Counted from the stretch's first letter, positions 19,110-34,399 are shown. The stretch: DNA of 64,000 nt from Escherichia coli (GCF_050320075.1 NZ_CP190018.1); one strand, 5' to 3'. Numbers and translations: made by a program. The notes: generated from the sequence alone by a model not told the origin.

Positions 19110-20609
19110 ATGCTAAATTTATTTGTTGGCCTTGATATATACACGGGGCTTTTGTTATTACTTGCTCTGGCATTTGTGTTGTTCTACGAAGCAATCAATG
19201 GTTTTCATGATACGGCGAATGCGGTGGCAACCGTTATTTATACTCGTGCCATGCAACCACAACTTGCTGTGGTGATGGCGGCATTTTTTAACTTTTTTGG
19301 CGTATTGCTAGGCGGACTTAGCGTTGCCTATGCCATTGTCCATATGTTGCCAACCGATTTGTTGCTGAATATGGGGTCAACTCACGGCCTGGCGATGGTC
19401 TTTTCCATGCTGCTGGCGGCGATTATCTGGAACCTGGGAACGTGGTTCTTTGGTTTACCGGCCTCCAGTTCGCATACCTTGATTGGTGCGATTATCGGCA
19501 TCGGTTTAACCAACGCGCTGTTAACCGGCTCATCGGTGATGGATGCGTTAAACCTGCGTGAAGTGACCAAAATTTTCTCCTCGCTGATTGTTTCCCCTAT
19601 CGTCGGCCTGGTCATTGCGGGAGGCCTGATATTCCTGCTGCGCCGCTACTGGAGCGGGACGAAAAAGCGTGACCGTATTCACCGCATTCCGGAAGATCGC
19701 AAAAAGAAAAAAGGCAAACGTAAGCCACCATTCTGGACGCGTATTGCGCTGATTGTTTCCGCTGCGGGCGTGGCGTTTTCGCACGGTGCTAACGACGGGC
19801 AGAAAGGGATCGGCCTGGTGATGCTGGTACTGGTGGGGATTGCCCCTGCTGGCTTCGTCGTCAATATGAACGCGTCCGGCTATGAAATTACCCGTACCCG
19901 CGATGCCGTCACCAACTTCGAACACTACCTGCAACAGCATCCTGAACTGCCGCAGAAGTTGATTACGATGGAACCTCCATTGCCTGCGACATCGACTGAT
20001 GGCACGCAAGTAACAGAGTTTCACTGTCATCCGGCAAATACCTTTGATGCGATTGCGCGCGTTAAAACGATGCTGCCAGGCAATATGGAAAGCTACGAGC
20101 CGTTAAGCGTGAGTCAGCGCAGCCAGCTGCGCCGCATTATGCTGTGCATCTCTGATACCTCTGCGAAGCTGGCGAAACTGCCAGGTGTCAGTAAAGAAGA
20201 TCAGAACCTGCTGAAAAAATTGCGCAGCGATATGTTAAGCACCATTGAGTACGCTCCGGTGTGGATCATCATGGCGGTAGCACTGGCGCTCGGCATTGGT
20301 ACCATGATTGGCTGGCGTCGTGTAGCGATGACCATCGGTGAGAAGATTGGTAAGCGCGGCATGACGTATGCGCAAGGGATGGCGGCGCAGATGACGGCGG
20401 CGGTATCTATCGGCCTTGCCAGTTATATTGGGATGCCCGTCTCCACAACACACGTCCTCTCGTCTGCGGTAGCAGGGACGATGGTGGTGGACGGCGGTGG
20501 GTTACAGCGTAAAACGGTAACCAGCATCCTGATGGCGTGGGTGTTTACTTTACCGGCGGCGATTTTTCTTTCTGGTGGGTTGTACTGGATAGCATTGCAG
20601 TTGATTTAA
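19110..20609 (+). CDS. pitB: Low-affinity inorganic phosphate transporter PitB
   Basis: 499-aa polytopic ORF matching recalled PitB; preceded by an AT-rich leader. Confidence 0.9.
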
Positions 20610-20618
20610 TCTTCCTGA

Positions 20619-20656
20619 AAATGCCCGGTCCTGGCGATCGGGCATTTCCATTTTTG
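20619..20656. terminator. Bidirectional terminator shared by pitB (+) and yghT (-)
   Basis: 9-bp stem (aaatgcccg / cgggcattt) with an 11-nt loop, followed by a cca-TTTTT run. Confidence 0.6.
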
Positions 20657-20657
20657 A

Positions 20658-21350
20658 CTAGTGATAACCACGCGCGGTCATAAAATCCGTAATCGCTTTT
20701 TCTGCATCAACCAGTACCTTTTCCAGTGGCTGATTGGCGTCGATATCAACCAGTTGTGCACCACCAAAGGTTAACTGTGGCGTTATGGCTATCTTTCTTG
20801 CCAGCGATTCCCTTTTGTGGTCAGGCTTACGCGCGCAGGCCACATCTAGATCGACATTGAGTTTGATGACCAGATCAGGTTTATGGCTCGCCATCCAGTG
20901 AAACGCTTTACGTTCCTGGCTTGCCAGCCATGAGACAAAACGACCGCCTTCAACGTTAGGTGGGAACACTGTACCATCGTAAGCGCCAGGAATTTGGTCC
21001 TGAGGATAACGGTCGGTTAGAACAATTAACCCGCGACGACGACAGGCAAGCATATGACGAAAGCGCAGTAAGCGACGGGCGACAAACGCTGTAATTACCA
21101 GCGCCGGAACAGGGCCAGGCAATTTTTTTGCTGTTTTCACCTGATTTCGTTCAATTGTTTTATGTAAGGATTTTCCCATCAACGGTAATTTTGTCACTGC
21201 ACGACCGACATTTCCGGCCTGTTTTCCTAAATGAACTCTTTCGGCTGCACCATATTTTTCGACAACGGTAATGAGATGTTCACACACCGTTGACTTGCCT
21301 GAACCATCGCTACCAATAACGGCAATTAATGGAGGTGTTATTGACTGCAT
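20658..21350 (-). CDS. yghT: P-loop NTPase (putative kinase) YghT
   Basis: 230 aa with Walker [10 protein letters not shown] near the N-terminus; paralogous to the next two genes. Confidence 0.85.
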
Positions 21351-21523
21351 GAATATATCCTTTAATTTAAATATCCATTAAAAATATTTATTTGGTTAAT
21401 ATGTTTTTATGAAAGCGTAATTCAGGTCAATGTCACAATTAACCATTGTCACAATAAGGTTGAACGGATATTCTGAGCACGGACCACGTAATATTCAATA
21501 CATTATTTGCTGCCGGGTTTTTC

Positions 21524-22237
21524 GTGAATCAACGTAATATGTCAATAATTAATTCCACGCCAGTGCGTGTTATTGCCATTGTAGGATGTGATGGTTCAGG
21601 TAAATCGACCCTCACGGCAAGCCTGGTAAATGAACTGGCAGCAAGAATGCCAACAGAACACATTTATCTCGGGCAATCGTCCGGGCGAATTGGCGAATGG
21701 ATTTCACAGCTCCCTGTTATTGGCGCACCTTTTGGGCGTTATTTGCGAAGTAAAGCGGCACATGTGCACGAAAAGCCCTTAACACCGCCTGGCAATATTA
21801 CTGCGCTGGTTATCTATCTGCTTTCCTGCTGGCGGGCGTACAAGTTTCGCAAAATGTTGTGTAAAAGCCAGCAAGGCTATCTGCTCATCACCGACCGCTA
21901 CCCGCAGGTTGAAGTGCCGGGTTTTCGCTTTGATGGCCCGCAATTGGCAAAAACCACGGGCGGTAACGGCTGGATAAAAATGTTAAGGCAGCGCGAGCTG
22001 AAGCTGTACCAATGGATGGCGTCTTATTTGCCCGTATTGTTGATTCGTCTTGGCATTGATGAACAAACCGCGTTTTCGCGTAAACCTGACCATCAACTGG
22101 CGGCGTTACAGGAAAAAATCGCCGTTACGCCGCAACTGACATTCAATGGCGCAAAGATCCTTGAACTGGATGGTCGGCAACCAGCCGATGAAATTATGCA
22201 AGCGTCACTACGCGCAATTCACGCCGCGCTTTCCTGA
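21524..22237 (+). CDS. yghS: P-loop NTPase (putative kinase) YghS
   Basis: 237 aa with Walker A GCDGSGKST; paralog of YghT and YghR (shared DRYPQ and ISRKPDH/FSRKPDH motifs). Confidence 0.85.
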   Translation: MNQRNMSIINSTPVRVIAIVGCDGSGKSTLTASLVNELAARMPTEHIYLGQSSGRIGEWISQLPVIGAPFGRYLRSKAAHVHEKPLTPPGNITALVIYLLSCWRAYKFRKMLCKSQQGYLLITDRYPQVEVPGFRFDGPQLAKTTGGNGWIKMLRQRELKLYQWMASYLPVLLIRLGIDEQTAFSRKPDHQLAALQEKIAVTPQLTFNGAKILELDGRQPADEIMQASLRAIHAALS

Positions 22238-22268
22238 TCACCAAAATGGATAGGGGATGATTTAACGA

Positions 22269-23027
22269 ATGGATGCACTACAAACACAAACTGTTAATAG
22301 TACAACCGCGCCGCAGCCCAACTACATTCCGGGGCTGATTGCGGTGGTCGGGTGTGATGGCACCGGTAAATCCACGCTGACCACCGACCTGGTGAAATCG
22401 CTGCAACAACACTGGCAAACCGAGCGCCGCTATTTGGGGCTGCTCTCCGGCGAAGACGGCGACAAAATCAAACGATTGCCGTTGGTTGGCGTCTGGCTGG
22501 AACGGCGACTGGCGGCCAAATCCTCGAAAACCCAAAGCATGAAAACCAAATCTCCAGCGCTATGGGCGGCGGTGATTATGTACTGCTTCTCGCTGCGAAG
22601 AATGGCGAATCTACGCAAGGTTCAGCGACTGGCGCAAAGTGGCGTTCTGGTGGTCAGCGATCGCTTCCCGCAGGCTGAAATTTCGGGCTTTTATTATGAC
22701 GGACCGGGGATTGGCGTCGAGCGCGCGACCGGGAAAATCAACCAATTTCTGGCGCAGCGCGAGCGACAGTTATACCAACAAATGGCGCAGTATCGTCCTG
22801 AATTAATCATTCGTTTGGGGATTGATATTGATACTGCCATCTCCCGCAAGCCTGACCATGACTATGCCGAGCTGCAGGACAAAATCGGCGTCATGTCGAC
22901 GATTGGCTATAACGGCTCAAAAATTCTTGAGATTGATTCCAGAGCGCCCTACAGCGAAGTGCTGGAACAGGCACAGAAGGCGGTTTCTCTGGTTGCCATC
23001 GTTTCTGACCGCCGAAGTTTAACTTAA
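22269..23027 (+). CDS. yghR: P-loop NTPase (putative kinase) YghR
   Basis: 252 aa with Walker A GCDGTGKST; paralog of YghS and YghT. Confidence 0.85.
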   Translation: MDALQTQTVNSTTAPQPNYIPGLIAVVGCDGTGKSTLTTDLVKSLQQHWQTERRYLGLLSGEDGDKIKRLPLVGVWLERRLAAKSSKTQSMKTKSPALWAAVIMYCFSLRRMANLRKVQRLAQSGVLVVSDRFPQAEISGFYYDGPGIGVERATGKINQFLAQRERQLYQQMAQYRPELIIRLGIDIDTAISRKPDHDYAELQDKIGVMSTIGYNGSKILEIDSRAPYSEVLEQAQKAVSLVAIVSDRRSLT

Positions 23028-23072
23028 GGCTGGCGGGATACTTTTTACTATCAACGATAAGGTCAGGCTGAA

Positions 23073-24422
23073 TTGGCGGGTTTTAACATCAAACATTGGT
23101 TTGCAGATGGCGCGTTTCGCACCATTATTCGCAATAGCGCCTGGTTAGGCTCCAGTAATGTCGTGAGCGCTTTGCTGGGTCTGTTGGCGCTCTCGTGTGC
23201 CGGTAAAGGGATGACGCCCGCCATGTTTGGCGTACTGGTGATTGTGCAATCGTACGCCAAGTCGATCAGCGATTTTATTAAGTTTCAGACATGGCAGTTG
23301 GTGGTGCAGTACGGAACGCCAGCCTTGACCAACAATAATCCGCAGCAATTTCGCAATGTCGTCTCATTTTCCTTCTCGTTGGATATCGTCAGCGGCGCGG
23401 TGGCGATTGTCGGCGGCATTGCCTTACTCCCTTTTCTTTCCCATTCATTAGGTCTGGATGACCAAAGCTTTTGGCTGGCAGCGCTGTATTGCACGCTCAT
23501 TCCTTCAATGGCTTCCTCCACGCCGACCGGCATTCTGCGTGCGGTAGATCGCTTCGACTTAATTGCTGTACAGCAGGCGACGAAACCTTTTCTGCGCGCA
23601 GCGGGGAGCGTCGTTGCCTGGTATTTTGACTTTGGTTTTGCGGGTTTTGTTATTGCCTGGTACGCCTCGAATCTTGTTGGCGGCACCATGTACTGGTGGT
23701 TTGCCGCACGTGAATTACGCCGCAGAAATATCCATAACGCGTTCAAATTGAATCTGTTTGAGTCTGCCCGACACATCAAAGGCGCGTGGAGTTTTGTCTG
23801 GTCAACCAACATTGCCCATTCCATCTGGTCGGCGCGTAATTCGTGCAGCACAGTGTTGGTGGGGATCGTGTTAGGACCCGCTGCCGCCGGGTTATTTAAA
23901 ATCGCCATGACATTCTTCGACGCCGCCGGAACGCCAGCGGGTTTACTGGGTAAAAGTTTTTACCCAGAGGTGATGCGTTTAGATCCGCGCACCACCAGAC
24001 CGTGGTTGTTAGGCGTGAAGTCCGGTTTACTGGCGGGCGGAATCGGTATTCTGGTGGCGCTCGCGGTGTTGATCGTCGGCAAGCCGCTCATTTCGCTGGT
24101 GTTTGGCGTTAAGTATCTCGAAGCGTATGACCTGATTCAGGTGATGCTGGGCGCAATTGTGATCTCGATGCTGGGCTTCCCTCAGGAGTCATTGCTATTG
24201 ATGGCGGGAAAACAGCGCGCTTTTCTCGTGGCGCAAACCATCGCCTCAATCGGCTACATCGTATTGCTGTTCATGTTCTGTCATCTGTTTGGCGTGCTGG
24301 GGGCTGCATTTGCTTACTTCGGTGGGCAATGTCTGGATGTGGTGTTCTCGCTAATTCCGACCTTAAAGGCATTTTTTCAGCGCCATTCCTTGCTTTATAA
24401 CTCAGCCGGAGAGAAATCCTGA
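23073..24422 (+). CDS. yghQ: Polytopic membrane protein YghQ, flippase-like (MOP/Wzx-type polysaccharide or lipid translocase fold inferred)
   Basis: Track ORF with a TTG start at 23073. The true start is uncertain; an ATG such as 23211 is possible. About 12 predicted hydrophobic segments. Its stop overlaps the next ORF's ATG. Confidence 0.75.
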   Translation: MAGFNIKHWFADGAFRTIIRNSAWLGSSNVVSALLGLLALSCAGKGMTPAMFGVLVIVQSYAKSISDFIKFQTWQLVVQYGTPALTNNNPQQFRNVVSFSFSLDIVSGAVAIVGGIALLPFLSHSLGLDDQSFWLAALYCTLIPSMASSTPTGILRAVDRFDLIAVQQATKPFLRAAGSVVAWYFDFGFAGFVIAWYASNLVGGTMYWWFAARELRRRNIHNAFKLNLFESARHIKGAWSFVWSTNIAHSIWSARNSCSTVLVGIVLGPAAAGLFKIAMTFFDAAGTPAGLLGKSFYPEVMRLDPRTTRPWLLGVKSGLLAGGIGILVALAVLIVGKPLISLVFGVKYLEAYDLIQVMLGAIVISMLGFPQESLLLMAGKQRAFLVAQTIASIGYIVLLFMFCHLFGVLGAAFAYFGGQCLDVVFSLIPTLKAFFQRHSLLYNSAGEKS

Positions 24423-25246
24423 TGATGAGAAAATATTTCCCGCTTGAGGCGAGCGAGCGTCTATTTGTTGCGATTGAAGAAGATGATGTTGTTGATGCAC
24501 AGGTCAGTTTGCCGCCGACTATCGCACTAAGTTGTACCACCGAAATCATCCATGATAATTACGCGTTATGCCTGCAATTCTGGCTCAATGGCGTCAATCG
24601 CCAGGAGTTACTGCGTTTAATATGCAAACAGGCCAAAGGCGATGAGCTGACTGCTGATGAGCGCAAACAATTTAAATACATGCGAGCGCGCTACAAGCAC
24701 CTGCGTTTTGCGCAACGGCTGTATTTAAAAAAGCATCAGGCCGGATTTTTATTCGGCAAAACGACCGTTTTTTTGGGGCGTTTTCAGGACGGCTTTCGTA
24801 ACGGTAAGAAAAATATTGTGTCGTATTACGGCAACCTGTTACGGGTTTATTTAAGCTCTCCGGTCTGGTCGTTGGTGAACTATTCATTACGCCATAGCCA
24901 GTTAGAAAGCGTAAGCGGTTTTATTGCCTATCGGCAAAAGCAAATGCATACCCTGAAAGAGATAATTGCCAAATCGCGACTAACTGGCAGGGAATTTCAT
25001 GATGTGCGAAAAATCATCAGCCAGCAGGTTTCTTATTACGACACCCTAAGATCGCTTGATCCTGAAAATAAAGAGGCGTTACAGATTTCCCGCTTCCTCG
25101 CCGCCATTAATGGCCTGATGGGGGATAAACACGACGACATGGTGGCGGATGATATGGAAAACCGCCAGTCGTATGATGCACCGATGGCGCTGGATAGCGA
25201 TATTCGTCAGCGCTTAGAACTGCTGATTTCGCGTTTTCCGCTATAA
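24422..25246 (+). CDS. Hypothetical soluble protein, 274 aa, translationally coupled to yghQ
   Basis: The ATG at 24422 overlaps the yghQ TGA. No signal peptide or TM segment and no family recognised; basic composition. Confidence 0.55.
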   Translation: MMRKYFPLEASERLFVAIEEDDVVDAQVSLPPTIALSCTTEIIHDNYALCLQFWLNGVNRQELLRLICKQAKGDELTADERKQFKYMRARYKHLRFAQRLYLKKHQAGFLFGKTTVFLGRFQDGFRNGKKNIVSYYGNLLRVYLSSPVWSLVNYSLRHSQLESVSGFIAYRQKQMHTLKEIIAKSRLTGREFHDVRKIISQQVSYYDTLRSLDPENKEALQISRFLAAINGLMGDKHDDMVADDMENRQSYDAPMALDSDIRQRLELLISRFPL

Positions 25247-25254
25247 CCGGAGCA

Positions 25255-25818
25255 ATGATGTCATCTCGTTTGATTATTGCGCTGGTTATCATGCTCTTAG
25301 CCCCGGGTGTGCAGGCGCACAATTTCGTCACTGGTAAAACGGTTACCCCTGTTTATATCCAGGAAGGCGGCGAGCTGCTTCTGAATAGCGAAGACGAAAT
25401 TCACTACCAAAAGTGGAACAGCACACAGCTGGCGGGAAAAGTCCGCATTATTCAGTATATCGCCGGGCGTAAGTCGGCGAAGAAAAAGAACTCACTGTTA
25501 ATTAAAGCGGTTGAAGCGGCAAACTTTCCGCAGGATCGTTTTCAGCCCACCACCATTGTGAACACTGATGATGCCATCTTTGGTACCGACTATTTTGTCG
25601 TTGGCAAAATCGAAAAAAATAAACGCCGCTATCCATGGGCGCAATTCGTTATTGACGGCAATGGACAGGGACGCGTTGCCTGGCACTTGCAGGAGCAGAG
25701 TTCAACCATTCTGGTGCTGAATAAAACCGGGCAAATTCAGTGGGCAAAGGACGGCAGTCTGACGCCGGAAGAGGTAGATCATGTCATTGCGCTGGCGCAG
25801 AAACTGATCAATGAATAA
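25255..25818 (+). CDS. YtfJ-family periplasmic protein (signal peptide)
   Basis: 187 aa with an N-terminal signal (MMSSRLIIALVIMLLAPGVQA). It resembles recalled E. coli YtfJ over its whole length (HNFVTGKTVTP..., TTIVNTDDAI..., WAKDGSLTPEEV). Confidence 0.7.
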   Translation: MMSSRLIIALVIMLLAPGVQAHNFVTGKTVTPVYIQEGGELLLNSEDEIHYQKWNSTQLAGKVRIIQYIAGRKSAKKKNSLLIKAVEAANFPQDRFQPTTIVNTDDAIFGTDYFVVGKIEKNKRRYPWAQFVIDGNGQGRVAWHLQEQSSTILVLNKTGQIQWAKDGSLTPEEVDHVIALAQKLINE

Positions 25819-25848
25819 AAAATTCAAAGGATTGAGGGCGTTAGTGAG

Positions 25849-26919
25849 ATGAAGCTGGTTGAACACTACATCATGCGTGGTACGCGCCGTCTGGTGCTGA
25901 TTATCGTCGGTTTTCTGATCTTTATTTTCGCCAGCTACTCCGCACAGCGTTATCTGACCGAAGCGGCAAATGGGACATTAGCTCTTGATGTTGTGCTGGA
26001 TATCGTTTTCTACAAGGTGCTGATTGCACTGGAGATGTTGTTACCTGTTGGACTGTATGTGTCAGTTGGCGTGACGCTAGGGCAGATGTATACCGACTCG
26101 GAAATTACCGCTATCTCTGCGGCGGGGGGCAGTCCGGGACGCTTGTACAAAGCCGTTCTTTATCTGGCGATACCGCTAAGTATTTTTGTCACCCTTCTGT
26201 CGATGTATGGTCGTCCGTGGGCTTATGCACAGATTTATCAACTGGAGCAACAGTCACAGTCGGAGCTGGATGTTCGCCAGTTGCGGGCAAAGAAATTTAA
26301 CACTAACGATAACGGACGAATGATCCTTTCGCAGACGGTTGATCAGGATAATAATCGCCTGACTGACGCGCTGATTTATACTTCTACTGCCAATCGAACC
26401 CGCATTTTCCGCGCCCGTTCGGTTGATGTGGTTGACCCATCACCTGAGAAACCGACCGTTATGTTGCATAACGGGACCGCCTATCTTCTCGATCATCAGG
26501 GGCGTGACGACAACGAACAGATCTACCGTAATCTGCAATTACATCTGAATCCGCTGGATCAAAGCCCTAACGTCAAACGCAAAGCAAAATCGGTCACGGA
26601 GCTGGCGCGCTCCGTCTTTCCAGCCGATCATGCCGAACTGCAATGGCGACAAAGCCGTGGCCTGACAGCGTTGTTGATGGCGCTGCTGGCCATTTCATTA
26701 AGTCGGGTAAAACCGCGGCAAGGGCGATTTTCAACGTTATTGCCACTGACGTTGCTGTTTGTTGCCATTTTTTATGGCGGCGACGTCTGCCGTACGCTGG
26801 TGGCTAACGGCGCGATTCCCCTCATTCCTGGTTTGTGGTTAGTACCCGGACTCATGCTAATGGGCCTGCTGATGCTGGTCGCACGCGACTTCTCTTTGCT
26901 GCAGAAATTTTCCCGATGA
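25849..26919 (+). CDS. LptF-like permease (YjgP/YjgQ family) paralog
   Basis: 356 aa with the LptF/LptG architecture: three TM segments, a large periplasmic insert, then three TM segments. N-terminus MKLVEHYIMRGTRRLVLIIVGFL. Distinct from housekeeping lptF. Confidence 0.75.
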   Translation: MKLVEHYIMRGTRRLVLIIVGFLIFIFASYSAQRYLTEAANGTLALDVVLDIVFYKVLIALEMLLPVGLYVSVGVTLGQMYTDSEITAISAAGGSPGRLYKAVLYLAIPLSIFVTLLSMYGRPWAYAQIYQLEQQSQSELDVRQLRAKKFNTNDNGRMILSQTVDQDNNRLTDALIYTSTANRTRIFRARSVDVVDPSPEKPTVMLHNGTAYLLDHQGRDDNEQIYRNLQLHLNPLDQSPNVKRKAKSVTELARSVFPADHAELQWRQSRGLTALLMALLAISLSRVKPRQGRFSTLLPLTLLFVAIFYGGDVCRTLVANGAIPLIPGLWLVPGLMLMGLLMLVARDFSLLQKFSR

Positions 26920-27995
26920 ATGTTTTCAGTCGCTATTTAATCCGTCATCTCTTTCTCGGTTTTGCCGCCGCCGCAGGGCTATTGCTGCCGCTTTTTACTA
27001 CCTTCAACCTGATTAACGAACTGGATGATGTCAGCCCGGGCGGTTATCGCTGGACTCAGGCGGTGCTGGTGGTGCTGATGACCTTACCGCGTACACTGGT
27101 CGAACTTTCGCCGTTTATCGCCTTATTGGGAGGGATTGTTGGCCTGGGGCAGTTATCGAAAAACAGTGAGCTTACCGCCATTCGCAGCACAGGGTTTTCT
27201 ATCTTCCGTATTGCACTGGTGGCGCTGGTTGCCGGGATATTGTGGACTGTTTCGTTAGGCGCGATAGATGAGTGGGTGGCGTCGCCATTGCAGCAACAGG
27301 CGCTGCAAATCAAATCGACTGCCACCGCGTTGGGGGAGGACGATGACATTACCGGCAATATGCTTTGGGCCAGGCGCGGTAATGAATTTGTGACGGTGAA
27401 ATCGCTGAACGAGCAGGGCCAGCCTGTGGGCGTGGAGATATTTCATTATCGCGACGATCTCTCGCTCGAATCCTACATTTTTGCACGCAGTGCCTCCATT
27501 GAAGACGACAAAACATGGATCCTGCATGGTGTGAATCATAAAAAATGGTTGAATGGCAAAGAAACGCTGGAAACATCAGATAATCTTGCCTGGCAATCGG
27601 CCTTCACCAGTATGAATCTTGAAGAGTTATCGATGCCGGGAAATACTTTTTCTGTCCGTCAACTTAATCATTACATCCATTATTTGCAGGAAACTGGGCA
27701 ACCCAGCAGCGAATACCGCCTTGCACTGTGGGAAAAACTGGGACAACCCATCCTGACCCTGGCGATGATTTTGCTGGCTGTGCCGTTTACCTTTAGTGCC
27801 CCGCGTTCGCCAGGGATGGGTAGCCGTCTCGCTGTAGGCGTCATCGTTGGCTTACTCACCTGGATCAGCTATCAAATCATGGTCAATCTGGGGTTGCTAT
27901 TTGCGTTGAGCGCACCTGTTACCGCGCTCGGTTTACCGGTAGCGTTTGTGCTGGTGGCGTTGAGCCTGGTGTATTGGTATGACAGACAACATTAA
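26916..27995 (+). CDS. LptG-like permease (YjgP/YjgQ family) paralog
   Basis: Track ORF 26835..27995 trimmed to the ATG at 26916 (MNVFSRYLIRHLFLGFAAAAG...), which overlaps the stop of the preceding permease (ATGA). Same architecture as LptG. Confidence 0.75.
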   Translation: MNVFSRYLIRHLFLGFAAAAGLLLPLFTTFNLINELDDVSPGGYRWTQAVLVVLMTLPRTLVELSPFIALLGGIVGLGQLSKNSELTAIRSTGFSIFRIALVALVAGILWTVSLGAIDEWVASPLQQQALQIKSTATALGEDDDITGNMLWARRGNEFVTVKSLNEQGQPVGVEIFHYRDDLSLESYIFARSASIEDDKTWILHGVNHKKWLNGKETLETSDNLAWQSAFTSMNLEELSMPGNTFSVRQLNHYIHYLQETGQPSSEYRLALWEKLGQPILTLAMILLAVPFTFSAPRSPGMGSRLAVGVIVGLLTWISYQIMVNLGLLFALSAPVTALGLPVAFVLVALSLVYWYDRQH

Positions 27996-28029
27996 ACCCG
28001 CCGTGGCGCAGCGCCACAGCGGGCTCACA

Positions 28030-29202
28030 TTACTGCTTCAGAGTAGCGAACGCTTGAATGATGGCATCAATTTGCTCACGACTGTGGGCAGCGTTTACGC
28101 TACAGCGCAGCAGCGTGATGCCTGCAGGCGCGGCAGGTGGCAGGATAAGATTCACATAAACGCCCAGCGAAATAAGCTCGCGCCAGATGCGTAAACCGTC
28201 CTCTTTCGAACCGATTATTACTGGCACTACCGGGCTAATATGTGAACTTAACTCGTAACCCAGTTTTTGCAGACCGTCATACAGATGGTTGGCATTATCC
28301 ATCAGCTTTTGCCGCAACTCTGGTTGTGTAGCAATGGTTCTTAACGACGAGCGCACGGTCGCAATGCAGGACGGAGAAGGAGAGGCGGTAAAAATATACG
28401 GGCGGCTGCCGTAGCGCAGCACTTCCATCGCTTCCGAACCGACAGCAAAACCGCCAATCGAGGCCAGACTTTTACTGAAAGTACCAACGATAATATCCAC
28501 ATCATCTTCAACGCCAACGGCTTCAGCCAGTCCGCGCCCCGTTGCGCCTAACACGCCAAACGAATGCGCTTCATCGACAATCAAATAACCACCGAGACGA
28601 CGTTTGATATCAACAATTTCCGCCAGCGGCGCAACGTCACCGAGCATACTGTAGATGCCTTCAACGATGATAATCGCCTCTTTTGCCCGTTCACCGAGGC
28701 GAACCATGCGCCGTTCCAGATCTTTAGCATCGTTATGGCGGAAACGAATAATTTCCGCGCCACCGAGAGAACAGGCGTCATAAATACTGGCGTGGCTGTC
28801 GGCATCCAGTAACACCACGGCGTTATGGTCGGCAAGTGCGCTGATGACGCCTAAATTAGCGGTATAACCGGTTGAAAAAACGATAGCGGTAGGGCGATTA
28901 AAAAACTCGGCGATCTCTTTCTCTAACGCCAGATGCGGCGCATAACTGCCGTTTGCCATACGAGAACCGGTGGTGCCGGTGCCTTGGGCCGCTAACGCTG
29001 CCTGACCTTCGGCGATGGCATCATGATTGAAGGTTAATCCGAGATAATTATTGGTCCCGGCCAGAATCACTTTTTTATTGCCGATCCGGCCTTCGGTGGC
29101 GGAATACACTTCATCAATACAGGTACCAAACGGCGTTAACCCGTTGTCACTAAATTGCAGTCGCTCGCCAGCAAGACGCGCATATTTATCGTATAGCCCC
29201 AT
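28030..29202 (-). CDS. Alpha-oxoamine synthase (class-II aminotransferase), serine-palmitoyltransferase-like
   Basis: 390 aa with the PLP-lysine motif GTFSKSLASIGG and a HSFG motif, typical of the Spt/BioF/KBL family. Last gene of a four-gene minus-strand operon. Confidence 0.8.
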   Translation of the reverse strand: MGLYDKYARLAGERLQFSDNGLTPFGTCIDEVYSATEGRIGNKKVILAGTNNYLGLTFNHDAIAEGQAALAAQGTGTTGSRMANGSYAPHLALEKEIAEFFNRPTAIVFSTGYTANLGVISALADHNAVVLLDADSHASIYDACSLGGAEIIRFRHNDAKDLERRMVRLGERAKEAIIIVEGIYSMLGDVAPLAEIVDIKRRLGGYLIVDEAHSFGVLGATGRGLAEAVGVEDDVDIIVGTFSKSLASIGGFAVGSEAMEVLRYGSRPYIFTASPSPSCIATVRSSLRTIATQPELRQKLMDNANHLYDGLQKLGYELSSHISPVVPVIIGSKEDGLRIWRELISLGVYVNLILPPAAPAGITLLRCSVNAAHSREQIDAIIQAFATLKQ

Positions 29203-29450
29203 TATTTATTCTCCAGCCATGGAAGTAGTGTTTCCATTAATTGCGCAGGGGTTTTGACATCCAGCAGAATATTAATAGGAATGGAAATATCGAATCTGTC
29301 TTCCAGCATCATTAAGAGATCCATCACTTTGATCGACTCCAGGCCAAGATCGTTGACGAGATCGCTGTCGGGCTTAATTTCCACACCGTTTTCGACCAAA
29401 TCCTGTAAACAGGAAAGGATGTAATCCATTACTATTTCACGATTTACCAT
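29202..29450 (-). CDS. Standalone acyl carrier protein
   Basis: 82 aa with a phosphopantetheine-attachment-like motif (DLGLESIKVMDL). Its stop overlaps the start of the downstream alpha-oxoamine synthase. Confidence 0.75.
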   Translation of the reverse strand: MVNREIVMDYILSCLQDLVENGVEIKPDSDLVNDLGLESIKVMDLLMMLEDRFDISIPINILLDVKTPAQLMETLLPWLENK

Positions 29451-29481
29451 AGAAACGTTAACACACCTTTAAACAAGACAA

Positions 29482-30396
29482 TCAAAATAGCCCGTTGCGT
29501 AATGCGTGTTCCAGGCTAATCCCGGGAAACCAATTAATATCTTCAGAAATACGGTTATTACTTGCTGACCAGTCGGCGTGGGTTAATTCACGGATTTTCG
29601 AGCGGGTCAGCATAGGTTCTTTACCTGCCAGGCGACTCAACGTGGTACTGATATCCGCAAGGCAGGTGAGTACCGACAGAGGAATACCAACCATTCGAAC
29701 GGAACCACAACGGGCGTCGGCGGCAAGCTGTCTTACGCGTTGCCAGTCATAGCCGCCGGCGACGCCATCGCATAATTCATAGGTTTGCGTCTGTACAGTT
29801 TCGGCGCTTAACCACTGCCCCACGGCTTGCGCGAAATCGGTGACGTGCAGGAAAGAGAGCTGTGTATCTGGCGCACCAAGTCGTGGCAGCAGGCCGCGCA
29901 GCATCCAGTCAAACAGCGGTTTTAACTCTTTATCGCCGGGACCATACACGGCTGTCGGGCGAAAAATGCCCAGCGTAATTTCGTCAGCCATTGCGGTCAG
30001 TCGTTGTTCGGCGACGTGTTTGGAGTTTGCATACCAGGAGAGTTCGGGATGACGCGCCGCCAGCGAAGAGATAAACAGAAAACGTTGGCAAAAGCCGCTC
30101 TCTTTTGCCGCTTGCATCAGGCGCAGGCTGCCGTCAACGTTACAGCGGGTAAAAATCTCTTCTTTGTGTCCGCGCACTTGTCCGGCGCAATGGACCACCG
30201 CGCTGGCTCCGGCAACCAGTTCGCTAAGCGAATGTGTATCTTCCAGCGAACCGCGCACCCAGATGAGATTATCATTGACGTGAGCGCGGGCAGTACGCGT
30301 CAATGCGCGAACGTGAAAGCCGCGGGCGAGCAGGTTATCGATAATATATTTACCGATAAACCCGGTAGCGCCCGTCACCGCGACAGTTTGATTCAT
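29482..30396 (-). CDS. NAD(P)-dependent epimerase/dehydratase (extended SDR) family reductase
   Basis: 304 aa with an N-terminal GATGFIG Rossmann motif and a YANSK (YxxxK) catalytic motif. Its start overlaps the upstream ligase stop by 4 nt. Confidence 0.8.
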   Translation of the reverse strand: MNQTVAVTGATGFIGKYIIDNLLARGFHVRALTRTARAHVNDNLIWVRGSLEDTHSLSELVAGASAVVHCAGQVRGHKEEIFTRCNVDGSLRLMQAAKESGFCQRFLFISSLAARHPELSWYANSKHVAEQRLTAMADEITLGIFRPTAVYGPGDKELKPLFDWMLRGLLPRLGAPDTQLSFLHVTDFAQAVGQWLSAETVQTQTYELCDGVAGGYDWQRVRQLAADARCGSVRMVGIPLSVLTCLADISTTLSRLAGKEPMLTRSKIRELTHADWSASNNRISEDINWFPGISLEHALRNGLF

Positions 30397-32114
30397 GCCA
30401 GGGATTCCTGCACATGAAGGCTTGCAGCATAAGCCTTCTGATAACGTTTTTTCGCTTCCGCACGGGCAGGCTTGCCGGAGGACGTTCGGGGAATACTGTG
30501 GGGCGGCAACAGATCGATAGCCGCGGTCACGCCAAATTCGCTTTGGATCCGTGCTGCCAGCGCGTGGATAAGCTGCCCGCGACGTTCTTCATCGCTGATC
30601 CGACACTGGATCTGCAAAATGATTTTTTCCTGGGCGGTAACAAAAGCAATCGCATCGCCAGAATGAATTTCCGGTTCCTGTTCCGCAATATATTCAATAT
30701 CCTGCGGCCAGATATTGCGGCCACGAATAATAATCAGATCTTTAATGCGTCCGGTGACATACAGATAACCGTCCAGCAGATAACCGAGGTCGCCGGTGTC
30801 TAACCAGCCCGTCGCGGCAATCTCGTCTTGTGAAATCTGGTCGCCAAAGTAACCGCTCATCAGGCTAGGGCCGGAGATGCAAATATGGCCTACCACACGT
30901 TCCGCGACAGGTATACCTGCTTCATTGCGGATTTCAATGCCATGTTCCGGCAACGCTTTACCGCAGTTGACGAAAGTCGATACGGCGCGTGTTTCAGCAT
31001 CCGGCGCGACGGCTTTGCCCTGATATTCGAGGATGTCGCGATCCACTTCGTTAACCACAACCCCGGAAGCTTCATCAGAGAAGCTGACAGCCAGCGCATT
31101 TTCTGCCAGTCCGTAGCACGGCATGAACGTTTTATCGTCAAAGTTAACCTGACGAAAACATTCAGCGAATTGATGGAGTTGTTCTGCGGAGATCGGTTCT
31201 GCGCCAATACCAGCGACGCGCCAGCAGGAAAGATCCAGTTCAGCGAGATCTTTTTCATTCACGCGGCGCTGGCACAATTCATAGCCAAACGGCGGCGCAA
31301 CGGAAACGGTGCCGCGATTTTTACTGATCAATTTAAGCCATTGCAGAGGACGCATGGCAAAATCCTGAGTGCGCAAATAATCTACTGAGAGCTGCGTGGC
31401 GACGGGGGTCAGGAGAAAGCCGACCAGTCCCATATCATGGTAGAAAGGCAGCCAGGAGACGCAGCGGTCGCCAGGGCGTAATTTAATGCCATCGTGGCTT
31501 ATAGCACGTAGATTAGCCATCACTTCGCGATGGGTGATAATGACGCCACGGGGAAAACGGGTGCTGCCGGAGGTGTACTGGAGGTAGGCGATATCGTTCG
31601 GAACTGGACGCTGGAGTGCAACATCGGCTTCCGGTAATGCCTTAAACCAGGCGTGGCTTAAAACATGTAATTCGGGTTTGTTATGCGTCGCGGCATTGAC
31701 CAGCGGTAACCACTCATCACCAGTGATAATGGCTGCGGGCTGGCAACTTGCCAGTAAACCCTGCAGTTTGGCGCTCCAGGAATCCCGCTGACCGACGCCC
31801 ATTGGAATCGCCAACGGGACGGCGATTAAGCCGGCATACTGGCAGGAAAAAAAAGCCTCTACGAACCCGCTACTGGTTTCGGCAATCAGCGCCACGCGAT
31901 CGCCTTTTTTCAGGTTCAGCGATAACAACCGCTTCGCACCAGCTTCGGCACGCGCTTTTAACGTCTGATATTCCAGTTGATCTTCAAGTTGGCAACGTCT
32001 GTCATAAAAATTCATTCCGGCGCTACTCAGAGCGGCGTAGTCCAAAGCATCAACCAGCGTTGGAAAATCGGCATAGCGCATAGGTAGGGAATGCGTAAAG
32101 ATTTTATTAGACAT
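30393..32114 (-). CDS. AMP-binding enzyme, fatty-acyl-AMP ligase or acyl-ACP synthetase-like
   Basis: Track ORF 30393..32141 trimmed to the ATG at the complement of 32112-32114 (MSNKIFTHSLPMRY...). Adenylation core motif YTSGSTRFPRGV. First gene of the operon. Confidence 0.8.
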   Translation of the reverse strand: MSNKIFTHSLPMRYADFPTLVDALDYAALSSAGMNFYDRRCQLEDQLEYQTLKARAEAGAKRLLSLNLKKGDRVALIAETSSGFVEAFFSCQYAGLIAVPLAIPMGVGQRDSWSAKLQGLLASCQPAAIITGDEWLPLVNAATHNKPELHVLSHAWFKALPEADVALQRPVPNDIAYLQYTSGSTRFPRGVIITHREVMANLRAISHDGIKLRPGDRCVSWLPFYHDMGLVGFLLTPVATQLSVDYLRTQDFAMRPLQWLKLISKNRGTVSVAPPFGYELCQRRVNEKDLAELDLSCWRVAGIGAEPISAEQLHQFAECFRQVNFDDKTFMPCYGLAENALAVSFSDEASGVVVNEVDRDILEYQGKAVAPDAETRAVSTFVNCGKALPEHGIEIRNEAGIPVAERVVGHICISGPSLMSGYFGDQISQDEIAATGWLDTGDLGYLLDGYLYVTGRIKDLIIIRGRNIWPQDIEYIAEQEPEIHSGDAIAFVTAQEKIILQIQCRISDEERRGQLIHALAARIQSEFGVTAAIDLLPPHSIPRTSSGKPARAEAKKRYQKAYAASLHVQESLA

Positions 32115-32141
32115 ATACACCACGAAAAAATTGGATATCAA

Positions 32142-32485
32142 AAATAAAATGACAATAATGCGGTGGATTATATAGGCATAAAAGATAAATGAGATAGTAT
32201 TTTCATCAGTGTGAAAATGAACATTGATTTAAATAATGAGTTTGAGTTTTTTTGTTTTTATTGTGAATGATATTTAATTTATGAATGTATTAAGAAGAAG
32301 CCTTGTCCGGTCGCCTTAAATCGACAAAAGGCATTGTGGCGCTTCTGTGTAGTCTCTGACCTTATCGTAATCATTAATAAATACTATTTATTCGTCGTTT
32401 GTATTCATTGGGTTGATTATTAAGGTGCCGTTCGTTGCTGTTGCAACCTGTTTGTCACCGTTAATTATTTGTTACCCACAGAACT
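32142..32485. promoter_or_regulatory. AT-rich divergent promoter region between the ligase operon (-) and the yghO-like gene (+)
   Basis: 344-bp non-coding, visibly AT-rich segment. No individual sites were mapped. Confidence 0.4.
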
Positions 32486-33628
32486 ATGGAATGCGATCTG
32501 CTGATGATTAAAATTGAAAAAGTAATTAATAAAAATGACCTTAAGGCATTTATCGCTTTTCCGTCATCACTTTATCCCGACGATCCAAACTGGATACCCC
32601 CTTTATTCATTGAACGCAACGAGCATTTGTCTGCGAAAAATCCGGGGACGGACCATATCATCTGGCAGGCGTGGGTGGCAAAAAAAGCAGGGCAGATAGT
32701 TGGGCGTATTACCGCGCAAATCGATACCTTGCACCGCGAGCGTTACGGCAAAGATACCGGTCATTTCGGCATGATTGACGCCATTGATGATCCGCAGGTT
32801 TTTGCCGCGTTGTTTGGCGCAGCGGAAGCGTGGTTGAAGTCACAAGGTGCAAGTAAGATCAGCGGTCCTTTCAGCCTGAATATCAATCAGGAAAGCGGAT
32901 TACTGATTGAAGGTTTCGATACACCACCCTGTGCGATGATGCCACACGGCAAACCGTGGTATGCCGCGCATATTGAACAATTGGGTTATCACAAAGGCAT
33001 TGATTTACTGGCGTGGTGGATGCAGCGAACCGATCTCACTTTCTCTCCGGCCCTAAAAAAACTGATGGATCAGGTGCGCAAAAAAGTGACCATTCGCTGC
33101 ATCAATCGCCAGCGGTTTGCCGAAGAGATGCAAATCCTGCGTGAGATTTTCAACTCTGGCTGGCAGCACAACTGGGGATTTGTGCCGTTTACCGAACATG
33201 AGTTCGCGACCATGGGCGATCAACTTAAATATCTGGTGCCGGACGATATGATCTACATCGCTGAGATTGATTCTGCACCCTGCGCGTTTATTGTCGGCTT
33301 GCCGAACATCAACGAGGCGATTGCCGATCTGAACGGATCGCTCTTTCCCTTCGGCTGGGCAAAATTGCTGTGGCGTTTGAAAGTCAGCGGTGTGCGAACT
33401 GCGCGAGTACCGCTGATGGGCGTGCGGGACGAGTATCAGTTCAGCCGCATCGGCCCGGTGATTGCGCTGTTATTGATTGAAGCCTTACGCGATCCGTTTG
33501 CCCGCCGGAAGATCGATGCGCTGGAGATGTCATGGATCCTCGAAACCAATACAGGCATGAATAACATGCTGGAACGCATTGGGGCGGAGCCGTACAAGCG
33601 TTACCGATTGTATGAAAAGCAGATTTGA
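32486..33628 (+). CDS. yghO: YghO-like protein, intact; candidate acyltransferase (function inferred from context, not proven)
   Basis: 380-aa ORF (the start may instead be the ATG at 32504). Soluble, no signal peptide. Sits between the lipid operon and glcC, where K-12 has the yghO remnant. Confidence 0.65.
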   Translation: MECDLLMIKIEKVINKNDLKAFIAFPSSLYPDDPNWIPPLFIERNEHLSAKNPGTDHIIWQAWVAKKAGQIVGRITAQIDTLHRERYGKDTGHFGMIDAIDDPQVFAALFGAAEAWLKSQGASKISGPFSLNINQESGLLIEGFDTPPCAMMPHGKPWYAAHIEQLGYHKGIDLLAWWMQRTDLTFSPALKKLMDQVRKKVTIRCINRQRFAEEMQILREIFNSGWQHNWGFVPFTEHEFATMGDQLKYLVPDDMIYIAEIDSAPCAFIVGLPNINEAIADLNGSLFPFGWAKLLWRLKVSGVRTARVPLMGVRDEYQFSRIGPVIALLLIEALRDPFARRKIDALEMSWILETNTGMNNMLERIGAEPYKRYRLYEKQI

Positions 33629-33634
33629 TGGCAG

Positions 33635-34399
33635 TCACCCCTGCTTCATCTCCAGCGGCACCGCCGAGCGAATCAAATGGTGGCCTTCCAGCTCGATATA
33701 GTGGAGATTCTTTTTCACGGTCCGCACATGATCGCATGCTGCGCGCTGGGCGACGTGCGGCAGCCGCTGCAACACCGCGTTGTAGATCCGCGCATGCTGG
33801 CGATCGATCTGCTTTTTTTGCTGTGGTCGATGGTAGAGATTATTTACGCTGGCAAACACTGAATTAAACATCAGATCGGTCAATGATTGCAGCGTAAACA
33901 CCAACACCTGATTGTGAGAAGCCTGACAAATGGCGAGATGGAAAGCGTGATCCAACTGCGCATGTTCGATCAGCGAAATCTCTTTGTTGTTCTCACTGGC
34001 GGCGAGCATTTTTTCATAACAGCGGGTTATCACAACAAAATCAGCCTGGGTTCCCAGCGTTGCCGCAAGCCTTGCCGATTCACCCTCCAGCAATGCGCGA
34101 ACGTCGAGCAGATCGTACAGCGTTCGCGGCTGCGTGCTGAACAGATGAATTAGCGGGCTGGTATCCTGCACCCGATTAAGCCGTGCGACACGAGAATCGC
34201 GACCCTGCGCCGTTTCAATAATCCCGCGCCCGCGCAGCACGGTCAGCCCTTCACGCAGTGCGGAGCGTGAGAAGCCGAGCTTTTCACACAGTCGACGTTC
34301 CGAGGGAAGCGGCTGACCGACCTTCAGTACGCCGTCGATAATTAACCGTTCGATACTCTCTGCAACCACTTCGCAAATAGGGCGACGTTCATCTTTCAT
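33635..34399 (-). CDS. glcC: GntR-family regulator of the glc operon, GlcC
   Basis: Track ORF 33635..34459 trimmed to the ATG at the complement of 34397-34399 (MKDERRPICEVVAESIERLIIDG...). Confidence 0.9.
   Translation of the reverse strand: MKDERRPICEVVAESIERLIIDGVLKVGQPLPSERRLCEKLGFSRSALREGLTVLRGRGIIETAQGRDSRVARLNRVQDTSPLIHLFSTQPRTLYDLLDVRALLEGESARLAATLGTQADFVVITRCYEKMLAASENNKEISLIEHAQLDHAFHLAICQASHNQVLVFTLQSLTDLMFNSVFASVNNLYHRPQQKKQIDRQHARIYNAVLQRLPHVAQRAACDHVRTVKKNLHYIELEGHHLIRSAVPLEMKQG

What the first reader, a model, noticed from the sequence alone, without database searches (positions are those of the whole stretch)
23073..27995. Operon with an LptF/LptG paralog pair, a YtfJ-like periplasmic protein and a flippase-like membrane protein, convergent on the lipid operon: candidate dedicated lipid export route
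Seen in sequence: yghQ (polytopic), a 274-aa soluble unknown, a signal-peptide YtfJ-family protein and two YjgP/YjgQ-family permeases are chained with overlapping stops and starts (ATGA junctions at 24422 and 26916). They end 35 bp from the stop of the alpha-oxoamine synthase gene. Established knowledge: LptF and LptG form the inner-membrane extractor for lipopolysaccharide, working with the LptB ATPase. Inference: a second LptFG-type pair beside a lipid-biosynthesis operon suggests extraction of a non-LPS lipid from the inner membrane toward the outer membrane, with the flippase-like YghQ moving it across the bilayer. No cognate ATPase gene is present in the operon, which raises the question of whether housekeeping LptB is shared or another energiser is used.
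Basis: partly seen in the sequence, partly recalled or inferred. Interest (0 to 1): 0.8.

Follow-up and report, generated by a model that had tools for sequence, protein, structure and literature searches.

The report
E. coli sphingolipid export genes (LptF2/LptG2)
This is the transport half of the E. coli sphingolipid gene cluster: a second, intact LptF/LptG pair plus a flippase-like protein that most likely move a ceramide-based lipid to the outer membrane, an idea already published for the equivalent Caulobacter genes.

Summary
Window 23073-27995 carries five intact, tightly packed + strand genes: yghQ (MOP/Wzx-type membrane protein), a 274-aa protein with no family match, a secreted YtfJ-family protein, and an LptF-like and an LptG-like permease. 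They converge on spt-acpR-cerR-aasR, the E. coli ceramide operon.

The permeases are about 29-32% identical to housekeeping E. coli LptF/LptG. They evolve under strong purifying selection and keep the glutamate that docks LptB. In 80 genomes the pair is always adjacent. It lies within 10 kb of ceramide genes in 70 of them; the other 10 loci are truncated.

PMC11324152 (2024) proposed LptF2/LptG2/LptC2 and a PF01943-type flippase for sphingolipid export in Caulobacter. A 2026 preprint showed that the Caulobacter pair is essential when anionic sphingolipid is made, that it binds LptB, and drew the E. coli UTI89 locus.

What I add:
- yghQ, the 274-aa gene and ytfJ-like form an Enterobacterales-only module.
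- That module is never found with the CPG head-group genes and MsbA-like exporter of other lineages.
- The 274-aa protein has a CHAD-like fold.
- K-12 lost the locus through an IS5-associated deletion.

No E. coli lipid product has been reported.

The parts
20658..21350 (-). yghT, a P-loop dTMP-kinase-like protein; one of three paralogues flanking the cluster
   Evidence: Weak TIGR00041/NF005923 matches. RefSeq annotation. Co-located with the cluster in 39 of 80 loci, including 6 Pseudomonas loci.
21524..22237 (+). yghS, a P-loop kinase-like protein; possible first gene of the + strand unit
   Evidence: A 9/12 promoter-like site lies at 21446-21474; this is a consensus match only.
22269..23027 (+). 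yghR, a P-loop kinase-like protein
   Evidence: Only weak AAA and thymidylate-kinase matches.
23073..24422 (+). yghQ, a polytopic MOP/Wzx-type (PF01943) membrane protein; candidate inner-membrane sphingolipid flippase
   Evidence: PF01943 E=2.7e-8. MOP flippase NF007773 E=2.4e-8. At least 6 hydrophobic segments. dN/dS 0.03. Same Pfam/InterPro family as Caulobacter CC_1166.
24422..25246 (+). 274-aa cytoplasmic all-helical protein with a CHAD-like fold; no sequence family
25255..25818 (+). ytfJ-like gene (YtfJ2): secreted YtfJ-family protein without cysteines
   Evidence: TIGR01626 213 bits against a cutoff of 151. PF09695 E=1.5e-59. Signal-like N terminus. dN/dS 0.11-0.15.
25849..26919 (+). lptF2, an LptF-type permease paralogue
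   Evidence: TIGR04407 319 bits. Near-full-length alignments to solved LptF chains, E about 1e-25 to 1e-32. About 32% identity to E. coli LptF over residues 4-126. Coupling-helix Glu85 aligns with LptF E84. dN/dS 0.05-0.08.
26916..27995 (+). lptG2, an LptG-type permease paralogue
   Evidence: TIGR04408 305 bits. Near-full-length alignments to solved LptG chains, E about 1e-42. About 29% identity to E. coli LptG. Glu85 aligns with LptG E88 and is invariant in 15 orthologues. dN/dS 0.03-0.05.
27993..28027 (.). 16-pair G+C-rich hairpin between the convergent lptG2 and spt genes; likely a bidirectional terminator
28030..29202 (-). spt, serine palmitoyltransferase
   Evidence: RefSeq annotation. 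The E. coli BL21 enzyme was assayed (PMC9386255).
29202..29450 (-). acpR, the specialised acyl carrier protein
   Evidence: PMC9386255.
29482..30396 (-). cerR-type epimerase/dehydrogenase (ceramide reductase homologue)
   Evidence: Listed as 'epi' ECD_02852 in PMC9386255.
30393..32141 (-). aasR, acyl-AcpR synthetase (annotated fatty acyl-AMP ligase). RefSeq starts the gene 27 nt inside this ORF.
   Evidence: PMC9386255.
32486..33628 (+). yghO, the bacterial ceramide synthase-type N-acyltransferase
   Evidence: Listed as 'aca: yghO ECD_02850' in PMC9386255. Conserved beside lptF2 in most non-enterobacterial loci.

Best explanation
The five genes are the export arm of the E. coli sphingolipid cluster.

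Proposed mechanism:
1. Ceramide is made at the cytoplasmic face of the inner membrane by Spt, AcpR, AasR, YghO and CerR. This part is shown biochemically in part, for E. coli BL21 proteins.
2. The lipid, perhaps after head-group modification by the YghT/S/R kinase-like proteins, is moved to the periplasmic leaflet by the MOP-type protein YghQ. This step is inferred.
3. LptF2-LptG2 extract it from that leaflet. They would be powered by the housekeeping LptB dimer docking on their conserved coupling helices, and would pass the lipid to the Lpt bridge toward the outer membrane. This step is inferred by analogy with Caulobacter LptF2/LptG2.
4. The CHAD-like 274-aa protein (cytoplasmic) and YtfJ2 (periplasmic) are inherited as one unit with YghQ. 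They probably assist that step on either side of the membrane, but their roles are unknown.
For: - Family membership and full-length, undegraded genes.
- The coupling-helix glutamates are retained: LptF2 E85 and LptG2 E85 align with LptF E84 and LptG E88. These residues are needed for LptB binding (PMC5082905).
- No ABC ATPase gene lies in the cluster.
- lptF2-lptG2 are adjacent in 80 of 80 loci. At least one ceramide gene lies within 10 kb in 70 of 80, and the other 10 are truncated.
- Linkage persists through rearranged gene orders and down to 36-37% identity.
- The yghQ-274aa-ytfJ2 triplet is present in all 48 enterobacterial loci wherever the sequence allows. It lies on either strand relative to lptF2G2.
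- Loci with the triplet lack the MsbA-like ABC exporter and the CPG genes, and the reverse also holds. This fits YghQ and the MsbA-like protein filling the same role.
- Caulobacter genetics and pull-downs, and the CC_1166 flippase proposal.
- The E. coli Spt/AcpR/AasR enzymes are active.
Against: - No sphingolipid has been reported from E. coli in the papers I could search.
- K-12-type strains lack the locus with no known defect.
- The gamma-proteobacterial pair is only weakly similar to the tested Caulobacter pair, so orthology is not shown.
- The YghQ match to flippase families is weak. MOP proteins normally flip undecaprenyl-linked glycans, not ceramides.
- No LptC2-like gene is present.
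- Nothing here bears directly on LptB use in E. coli.
Confidence: 0.68

Rival explanations
1. LptF2-LptG2 are an alternative extractor for LPS or a modified LPS form, used under particular conditions, and are only coincidentally next to the ceramide genes.
For: They pass the NCBIfam equivalog cutoffs for LptF and LptG, and RefSeq names them LPS export permeases. The basic residues R59 and K133 of LptG2 and R34 of LptF2 align with the LPS-contacting K62, R136 and R33.
Against: Linkage with ceramide genes is maintained across Enterobacterales, Pseudomonadales, Nitrococcus and Betaproteobacteria despite reshuffled gene order. In Caulobacter the paralogues become dispensable when sphingolipid synthesis is removed. 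Housekeeping lptFG is essential in E. coli, which is established knowledge, so these copies do not substitute for it in K-12-type strains that lack them.
Confidence: 0.07
2. The cluster is a silent or decaying remnant in E. coli that makes and exports nothing under natural conditions.
For: No E. coli sphingolipid is reported in the searched literature. About a quarter of complete genomes lack most of it. Deletion and fusion variants exist.
Against: dN/dS is 0.03-0.15 for all 13 genes between Escherichia lineages, with no stop codons and full coverage. The locus is intact in 4051-4057 of 5426 complete genomes. The same gene set is kept in more than 15 enterobacterial genera at 52-75% identity. 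The E. coli enzymes are active in vitro.
Confidence: 0.1
3. YghQ, the 274-aa protein and YtfJ2 do not flip the lipid. They build or attach a head group or surface polymer, for example with YghQ exporting a separate lipid-linked precursor, while flipping is done by MsbA or is spontaneous.
For: MOP/PF01943 proteins classically flip undecaprenyl-linked oligosaccharides. The CHAD-like fold and the three kinase-like neighbours point to phosphate chemistry rather than transport. Enterobacterial loci lack every CPG head-group gene, so some other head-group machinery is expected.
Against: No glycosyltransferase or polymerase gene lies in the cluster. The triplet and the MsbA-like exporter are never found in the same locus. 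CC_1166, of the same family, shows cofitness with transport and CPG2 genes in Caulobacter.
Confidence: 0.15

Closest known systems
Caulobacter crescentus LptF2/LptG2 (CCNA_01214/CCNA_01213 = CC_1156/CC_1155) sphingolipid transporter
   Same: An LptF/LptG paralogue pair encoded inside the sphingolipid cluster, adjacent to each other, with no dedicated LptB. Proposed to extract sphingolipid from the inner membrane. The E. coli UTI89 locus is drawn as homologous in the preprint's Figure 2B.
   Different: Sequence similarity between gamma-proteobacterial and Caulobacter proteins is low (24% identity for A. vinelandii against CC_1156). E. coli has no LptC2. E. coli has none of the CPG/CPG2 head-group genes, so the substrate is probably a different ceramide derivative. 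There are no experimental data for E. coli.
Housekeeping LptB2FG(C) LPS extractor (for example PDB 6MHU, 6S8G)
   Same: Same Pfam family (PF03739). Aligns over nearly the whole length, so by homology it should have six transmembrane helices and a periplasmic domain. The coupling-helix Glu is conserved.
   Different: About 29-32% identity. Encoded without lptB, lptC or lptA. Genomic context is ceramide synthesis, not pepA-lptFG. Dispensable, since it is absent from K-12-type strains.
CC_1166 (CCNA_01224), the putative sphingolipid flippase of Caulobacter (IPR002797/PF01943)
   Same: YghQ matches the same family and also sits in the sphingolipid cluster.
   Different: Direct similarity was not tested because no Caulobacter sequence was available. 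The only distant relative seen is a 453-aa gene in the metagenomic locus L005, at 25-30% identity. Neither protein has been assayed.
CPG-type sphingolipid loci of Pseudomonas, Azotobacter, Methyloversatilis and Nitrococcus
   Same: The same seven-gene core: spt, acpR, cerR, aasR, yghO-like, lptF2 and lptG2, at 43-76% identity.
   Different: They carry CpgC-like, CpgB-like (DAGK), CDP-alcohol phosphatidyltransferase, Elm1-like and MsbA-like ABC genes. They lack yghQ, the 274-aa gene and ytfJ2.
CHAD domains (PF05235; PDB 6QV5, 3E0S, 6RN5)
   Different: No Pfam CHAD match. Foldseek gave no significant hit. Polyphosphate binding is untested. The context is a lipid cluster, not polyphosphate metabolism.

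Membership tests
LptF/LptG permease family (PF03739; TIGR04407, TIGR04408) | Profile score above the curated cutoff over the full length | tested here: met
   LptF2 scores 319 bits against a cutoff of 230. LptG2 scores 305 bits against 240. Model coverage is 2-346 of 347 and 2-350 of 351.
LptF/LptG permease family (PF03739; TIGR04407, TIGR04408) | Conserved coupling-helix glutamate that engages the LptB groove (LptF E84, LptG E88) | tested here: met
   LptF2 Y81-x3-E85...G93 and LptG2 E85...G93 align without gaps to E. coli LptF Y80/E84/G92 and LptG E88/G96. The role of these residues is described in PMC5082905.
LptF/LptG permease family (PF03739; TIGR04407, TIGR04408) | Basic residues that contact the lipid A phosphates and inner core (LptG K34, K40, K41, K62, R133, R136; LptF R33, K317, K322) | tested here: inconclusive
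   LptG2 has N31, D37, D38, R59, L130 and K133. LptF2 has R34, V318 and I323. However, the acidic ELDDVG-type motif is common across the whole LptG family, including P. aeruginosa LptG. The difference therefore does not discriminate substrate.
LptF/LptG permease family (PF03739; TIGR04407, TIGR04408) | Transports LPS with LptB, LptC and LptA | not testable with these tools
   Needs genetics or biochemistry.
Sphingolipid-locus LptF2/LptG2 (Caulobacter type) | Adjacent paralogue pair encoded within or beside spt, bcerS and cerR | tested here: met
   In the window, lptG2 ends 34 nt from spt. The pair is adjacent in 80 of 80 loci, and ceramide genes lie within 10 kb in 70 of 80, the rest being truncated.
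Sphingolipid-locus LptF2/LptG2 (Caulobacter type) | No dedicated lptB in the locus | tested here: met
   No ABC ATPase is annotated between pitB and glcC or elsewhere in the 64-kb window.
Sphingolipid-locus LptF2/LptG2 (Caulobacter type) | Orthology to CCNA_01213/CCNA_01214 | not tested
   No Caulobacter sequence could be fetched. Published BLAST links A. vinelandii Avin_44330/44340 to CC_1156/CC_1155 only weakly, at E=1e-6 and 9e-13. E. coli LptG2 is 48% identical to the A. vinelandii protein (L072).
Sphingolipid-locus LptF2/LptG2 (Caulobacter type) | Deletion tolerated only when sphingolipid or its anionic head group is absent; co-purifies with LptB | not testable with these tools
   Shown for Caulobacter only.
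MOP/Wzx-type flippase (PF01943) | Profile match and polytopic membrane topology | tested here: inconclusive
   PF01943 E=2.7e-8 and PF13440 E=1.3e-7. NCBIfam NF007773 gives 33 bits against a cutoff of 273. Six strong hydrophobic segments were counted with a crude scale, fewer than the 12-14 typical of the family.
YtfJ family (TIGR01626, PF09695) | Profile score above cutoff; secreted | tested here: met
   213 bits against a cutoff of 151. PF09695 E=1.5e-59. N-terminal hydrophobic segment at residues 1-19.
CHAD domain (PF05235) | Sequence profile match | tested here: not met
   No Pfam hit with E<=0.001; the only match listed is SPP1_GP23-1 at E=0.48.
CHAD domain (PF05235) | Helical-bundle CHAD fold with conserved His and basic residues | tested here: met

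The most novel reading that the evidence does not exclude
Enterobacterales carry a distinct version of the bacterial sphingolipid system. The CPG head-group genes, LptC2 and the MsbA-like exporter are replaced by a co-inherited trans-membrane module plus a trio of P-loop kinase-like proteins (YghT/S/R). The module consists of a CHAD-like cytoplasmic protein, the MOP-type YghQ and periplasmic YtfJ2. On this reading E. coli and its relatives make and export to the outer membrane a still undescribed ceramide derivative, possibly phosphorylated. YtfJ2 would act as a new periplasmic partner of LptF2G2 or of the periplasmic ceramide-reduction step.
Probability: 0.3. Interest if true: 0.65.

Novelty: already known. 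Interest (0 to 1): 0.38.

Why it matters
E. coli is usually described as having no sphingolipids. Yet about three quarters of complete E. coli genomes, and many other enterobacterial genera, keep an intact ceramide synthesis and export cluster under purifying selection.

If the lipid is made, it would be an unrecognised outer-membrane component of a major pathogen and gut commensal. It could affect barrier function, polymyxin and detergent sensitivity, and host sphingolipid signalling. A second client for LptB and the Lpt bridge also matters for antibiotics aimed at LPS transport.

The central idea is already published for Caulobacter, so the value here is confirmation plus a clearer parts list for the enterobacterial variant.

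Tried and rejected
1. A substrate-specificity signature in LptG2. LptG2 replaces the lipid A-contacting K34, K40 and K41 with N, D and D. I first read this as evidence for a non-LPS substrate. An alignment of 137 full-length family representatives showed that the acidic ELDDVG-type motif is the common state of the family, and it is also seen in P. aeruginosa housekeeping LptG. I dropped it as evidence.

2. Structure of YtfJ2. The AlphaFold2 model from 24 orthologues had pLDDT 46, so I ran no fold search. Sequence and profile searches of the PDB found nothing.

3. YghR/S/T as homologues of the Caulobacter ceramide kinase CpgB. CpgB is a DAG-kinase/LCB5-type enzyme, not a P-loop protein, so there is no relation.

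5. Promoter and terminator scan. The number of promoter-like sites is below the shuffle expectation (13 against 15.6). No conclusion on operon starts is possible. Only the lptG2/spt hairpin stands out.

6. Unusual allelic divergence within E. coli. Identity of 96-98% across genomes is ordinary.

7. Literature search for an E. coli or enterobacterial sphingolipid product, and for any YtfJ function. Nothing found.

Full report
**Where the window comes from.** The window is E. coli chromosome, from the yqhD-hyb-gss-pitB side to the glc and gsp (type II secretion) side. Region 21400-32300 is 100% identical to several complete genomes. It is present at 80% coverage or more in 4057 of 5426 complete E. 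coli genomes (4051 for 20600-33700). The RefSeq annotation of an identical locus lists, in order: yghT (-), yghS, yghR, a 'lipopolysaccharide biosynthesis protein' (yghQ), a hypothetical protein, a YtfJ family protein, lptF and lptG (all +). Then come spt, an acyl carrier protein, an epimerase/dehydratase and a fatty acyl-AMP ligase (all -), and yghO (+).

**Check of the observation.**
- The two permeases pass the curated NCBIfam cutoffs for LptF and LptG (319 bits against 230; 305 against 240).
- The 187-aa protein passes the YtfJ cutoff (213 against 151) and matches PF09695 at E=1.5e-59.
- YghQ gives weak PF01943/PF13440 and MOP-flippase matches and is polytopic.
- The 274-aa protein has no Pfam or NCBIfam match and no hydrophobic segment.
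- The ATGA overlap at 26916 is real. The junction at 24422 is a 1-nt TGATG overlap.
- lptG2 ends 34 nt from the spt stop, and the gap holds a 16-pair hairpin.
- No ABC ATPase gene is in the cluster or anywhere else in the window.
- yghS and yghR lie directly upstream on the same strand (gaps of 31 and 45 nt), so the unit may be seven genes long. The promoter scan gives no usable evidence.

**The permeases are divergent paralogues, not degraded copies.**
- Both align over nearly their full length to solved LptF and LptG chains: E about 1e-25 to 1e-32 for LptF2 and about 1e-42 for LptG2.
- Identity to the E. coli housekeeping proteins is about 29% for LptG2 and about 32% for the N-terminal third of LptF2.
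- Against three other Escherichia lineages, all 13 genes of the cluster show full coverage and no stop codons. dN/dS is 0.05-0.08 for LptF2, 0.03-0.05 for LptG2, 0.03 for YghQ, 0.06-0.08 for the 274-aa protein and 0.11-0.15 for YtfJ2.
- The coupling-helix glutamates that LptF and LptG use to bind the LptB groove (E84 and E88; PMC5082905) are retained as LptF2 E85 and LptG2 E85. Neighbouring Tyr and Gly positions are retained too. E85 is invariant in 15 LptG2 orthologues.

**The neighbouring operon.** It is the ceramide pathway. Padilla-Gomez et al. showed that E. coli BL21 AcpR carries phosphopantetheine, that AasR acylates it, and that the E. coli Spt prefers acyl-AcpR. They listed ECD_02852 as the dehydrogenase and yghO as the N-acyltransferase (PMC9386255).

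- PMC11324152 (2024) describes CC_1168, CC_1156 and CC_1155 as second versions of LptC, LptF and LptG. It describes CC_1166 (IPR002797, the PF01943 family) as a potential flippase. [quoted passage not shown]
- The preprint 10.64898/2026.04.12.717747 (April 2026) shows that lptF2, lptG2 and lptC2 of Caulobacter can be deleted only in spt or cpgB deletion backgrounds.
- It also shows that LptF2 and LptG2 co-purify with each other and with the sole LptB.
- It states that such pairs occur in many alpha- and gamma-proteobacterial sphingolipid loci, and its Figure 2B draws the E. coli UTI89 locus.
It remains untested in E. coli.

**Comparative genomics done here.**
- LptG2 orthologues occur at 64-98% identity across Enterobacterales.
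- More distant ones occur at 51% in Pseudomonas, 44% in Methyloversatilis and 36-37% in metagenomes. All lie beside spt-acp-epimerase-AMP-ligase or other sphingolipid genes.
- A scan of one genome per species returned 80 loci. tblastn with the 13 E. coli proteins shows lptF2-lptG2 adjacent in 80 of 80.
- At least one ceramide gene lies within 10 kb in 70 of 80. The other ten are loci for which less than the full flank was held.
- Gene order differs among genera: the spt operon may be convergent, upstream, or separated by the kinase genes. Linkage is kept throughout.
- yghQ, the 274-aa gene and ytfJ2 occur in 48 loci, all Enterobacterales. All three are found in 43, and the other five are cut by the end of the locus.
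- The triplet is contiguous and co-oriented in 41 of 43. It lies on the same strand as lptF2G2 in 32 and on the opposite strand in 11. It is therefore a separable module.
- A second tblastn used genes from the Pseudomonas and Methyloversatilis loci. CpgC-like, CpgB-like (DAGK), CDP-alcohol phosphatidyltransferase, Elm1-like and MsbA-like ABC exporter genes occur only in non-enterobacterial loci, never together with the triplet.
- The mutually exclusive presence of a MOP-type protein and an MsbA-like exporter is what one expects if each supplies the flipping step. This is an inference.
- YghT/S/R-like proteins occur in 39 loci, including six Pseudomonas loci without the triplet. They form an independent module tied to sphingolipid clusters. 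They are unrelated to the DAG-kinase-type ceramide kinase CpgB.

**The two unknown proteins.**
- The 274-aa protein has orthologues only in the genera that have LptG2, and none has a Pfam domain.
- An AlphaFold2 model from 25 orthologues is confident (pLDDT 93) and all-helical.
- The alignment has many invariant His, Arg and Lys residues. I call it CHAD-like by fold only, because the Pfam test for CHAD is not met.
- CHAD domains are known as polyphosphate binders. This is my own knowledge, not tested here. A role in handling an anionic head group is speculation.
- YtfJ2 has no cysteines, no relative of known structure, and gave a poor model (pLDDT 46). I found no functional literature on YtfJ.

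**A lead that failed.** LptG2 lacks LptG K34, K40 and K41, which contact the lipid A phosphates and inner core (PMC6744409). It has N31, D37 and D38 instead. This looked like a substrate signature. However, an acidic ELDDVG-type motif is the usual state among 137 full-length representatives of the family, and P. aeruginosa housekeeping LptG also has an acidic or neutral motif. It says nothing about substrate.

**Limits.**
- The link to the experimentally studied Caulobacter pair is by genomic context. Published BLAST values between Caulobacter and A. vinelandii LptF2/G2 are weak (24% identity at E=1e-6, and E=9e-13), and I could not fetch Caulobacter sequences to build a tree.
- No paper in the searchable library reports a sphingolipid from E. 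coli or another enterobacterium.
- K-12-type strains carry an IS5 element and lack everything from the 3' end of yghQ to aasR. This explains why the locus has been little studied, and it shows the locus is dispensable in the laboratory.

**Verdict.** The most likely mechanism is as follows. Ceramide is made at the cytoplasmic face, possibly modified, and flipped by YghQ. LptF2-LptG2 then extract it using the housekeeping LptB and pass it on to the outer membrane. The steps shown are family membership, intactness, conserved linkage and in vitro activity of three biosynthetic enzymes. The steps inferred are flipping by YghQ, LptB sharing, use of the Lpt bridge, and the very existence of the lipid in E. 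coli. The enterobacterial accessory module is the only part I did not find described elsewhere.

Noticed in passing
L088 (NZ_CP026612.1, K-12-type strain); corresponds to window about 24140-32480: Laboratory K-12-type strains have an IS5 element between a 3'-truncated yghQ and yghO. Everything from the 274-aa gene to aasR is missing.
   Followed up: partly
window 20658-24422 (yghT, yghS, yghR, yghQ): Table 1 of PMC9278758 lists transposon mutants of yghQ, yghR, yghS and yghT, in a W3110-type strain, among 50 vancomycin-resistant mutants. That strain type lacks the spt and lptF2G2 genes, so the envelope phenotype is unexplained.
   Followed up: no
proteins P0024, P0152, P0437 (E. coli contigs); window 24422-27995 and about 49.5-60 kb: Some E. 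coli strains encode fusion ORFs: GspC::LptG2, GspM::274-aa protein and YtfJ2::LptF-like. These point to strain-specific deletions joining the gsp type II secretion cluster to this locus, or to internal deletions.
   Followed up: no
window 25255-25818: Truncated YtfJ2 variants of about 153 aa, with 64% coverage at 96-98% identity, occur on many E. coli contigs (for example P0513 on 120 contigs). YtfJ2 is also the fastest-evolving gene of the cluster (84-89% identity between Escherichia lineages, dN/dS 0.11-0.15).
   Followed up: partly
L045, L054, L056, L057, L060, L082 (Pseudomonas spp.): A third locus type has the ceramide core and lptF2G2 with CpgC-like, DAGK-like and MsbA-like genes and YghT/S/R-like kinases. 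It lacks the CDP-alcohol transferase and Elm1 genes and lacks the yghQ triplet.
   Followed up: partly
window 20658-33628: Synonymous divergence between Escherichia lineages varies widely inside the cluster, from dS about 0.10 for acpR to 0.5-0.8 for lptG2 and the 274-aa gene. This suggests a recombination mosaic.
   Followed up: no
window about 60700-64000 (from the annotation of NZ_CP123240.1): Beyond the gsp cluster lie an integrase fragment, a TPR protein and a glycosyltransferase family 29 (sialyltransferase-type) gene that runs off the end of the window.
   Followed up: no
L005 11369-12730 (metagenomic contig): One distant CPG-type locus has a 453-aa gene with no Pfam hit directly after lptG2. 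It is 25-30% identical to YghQ and is the only YghQ relative found outside Enterobacterales.
   Followed up: no
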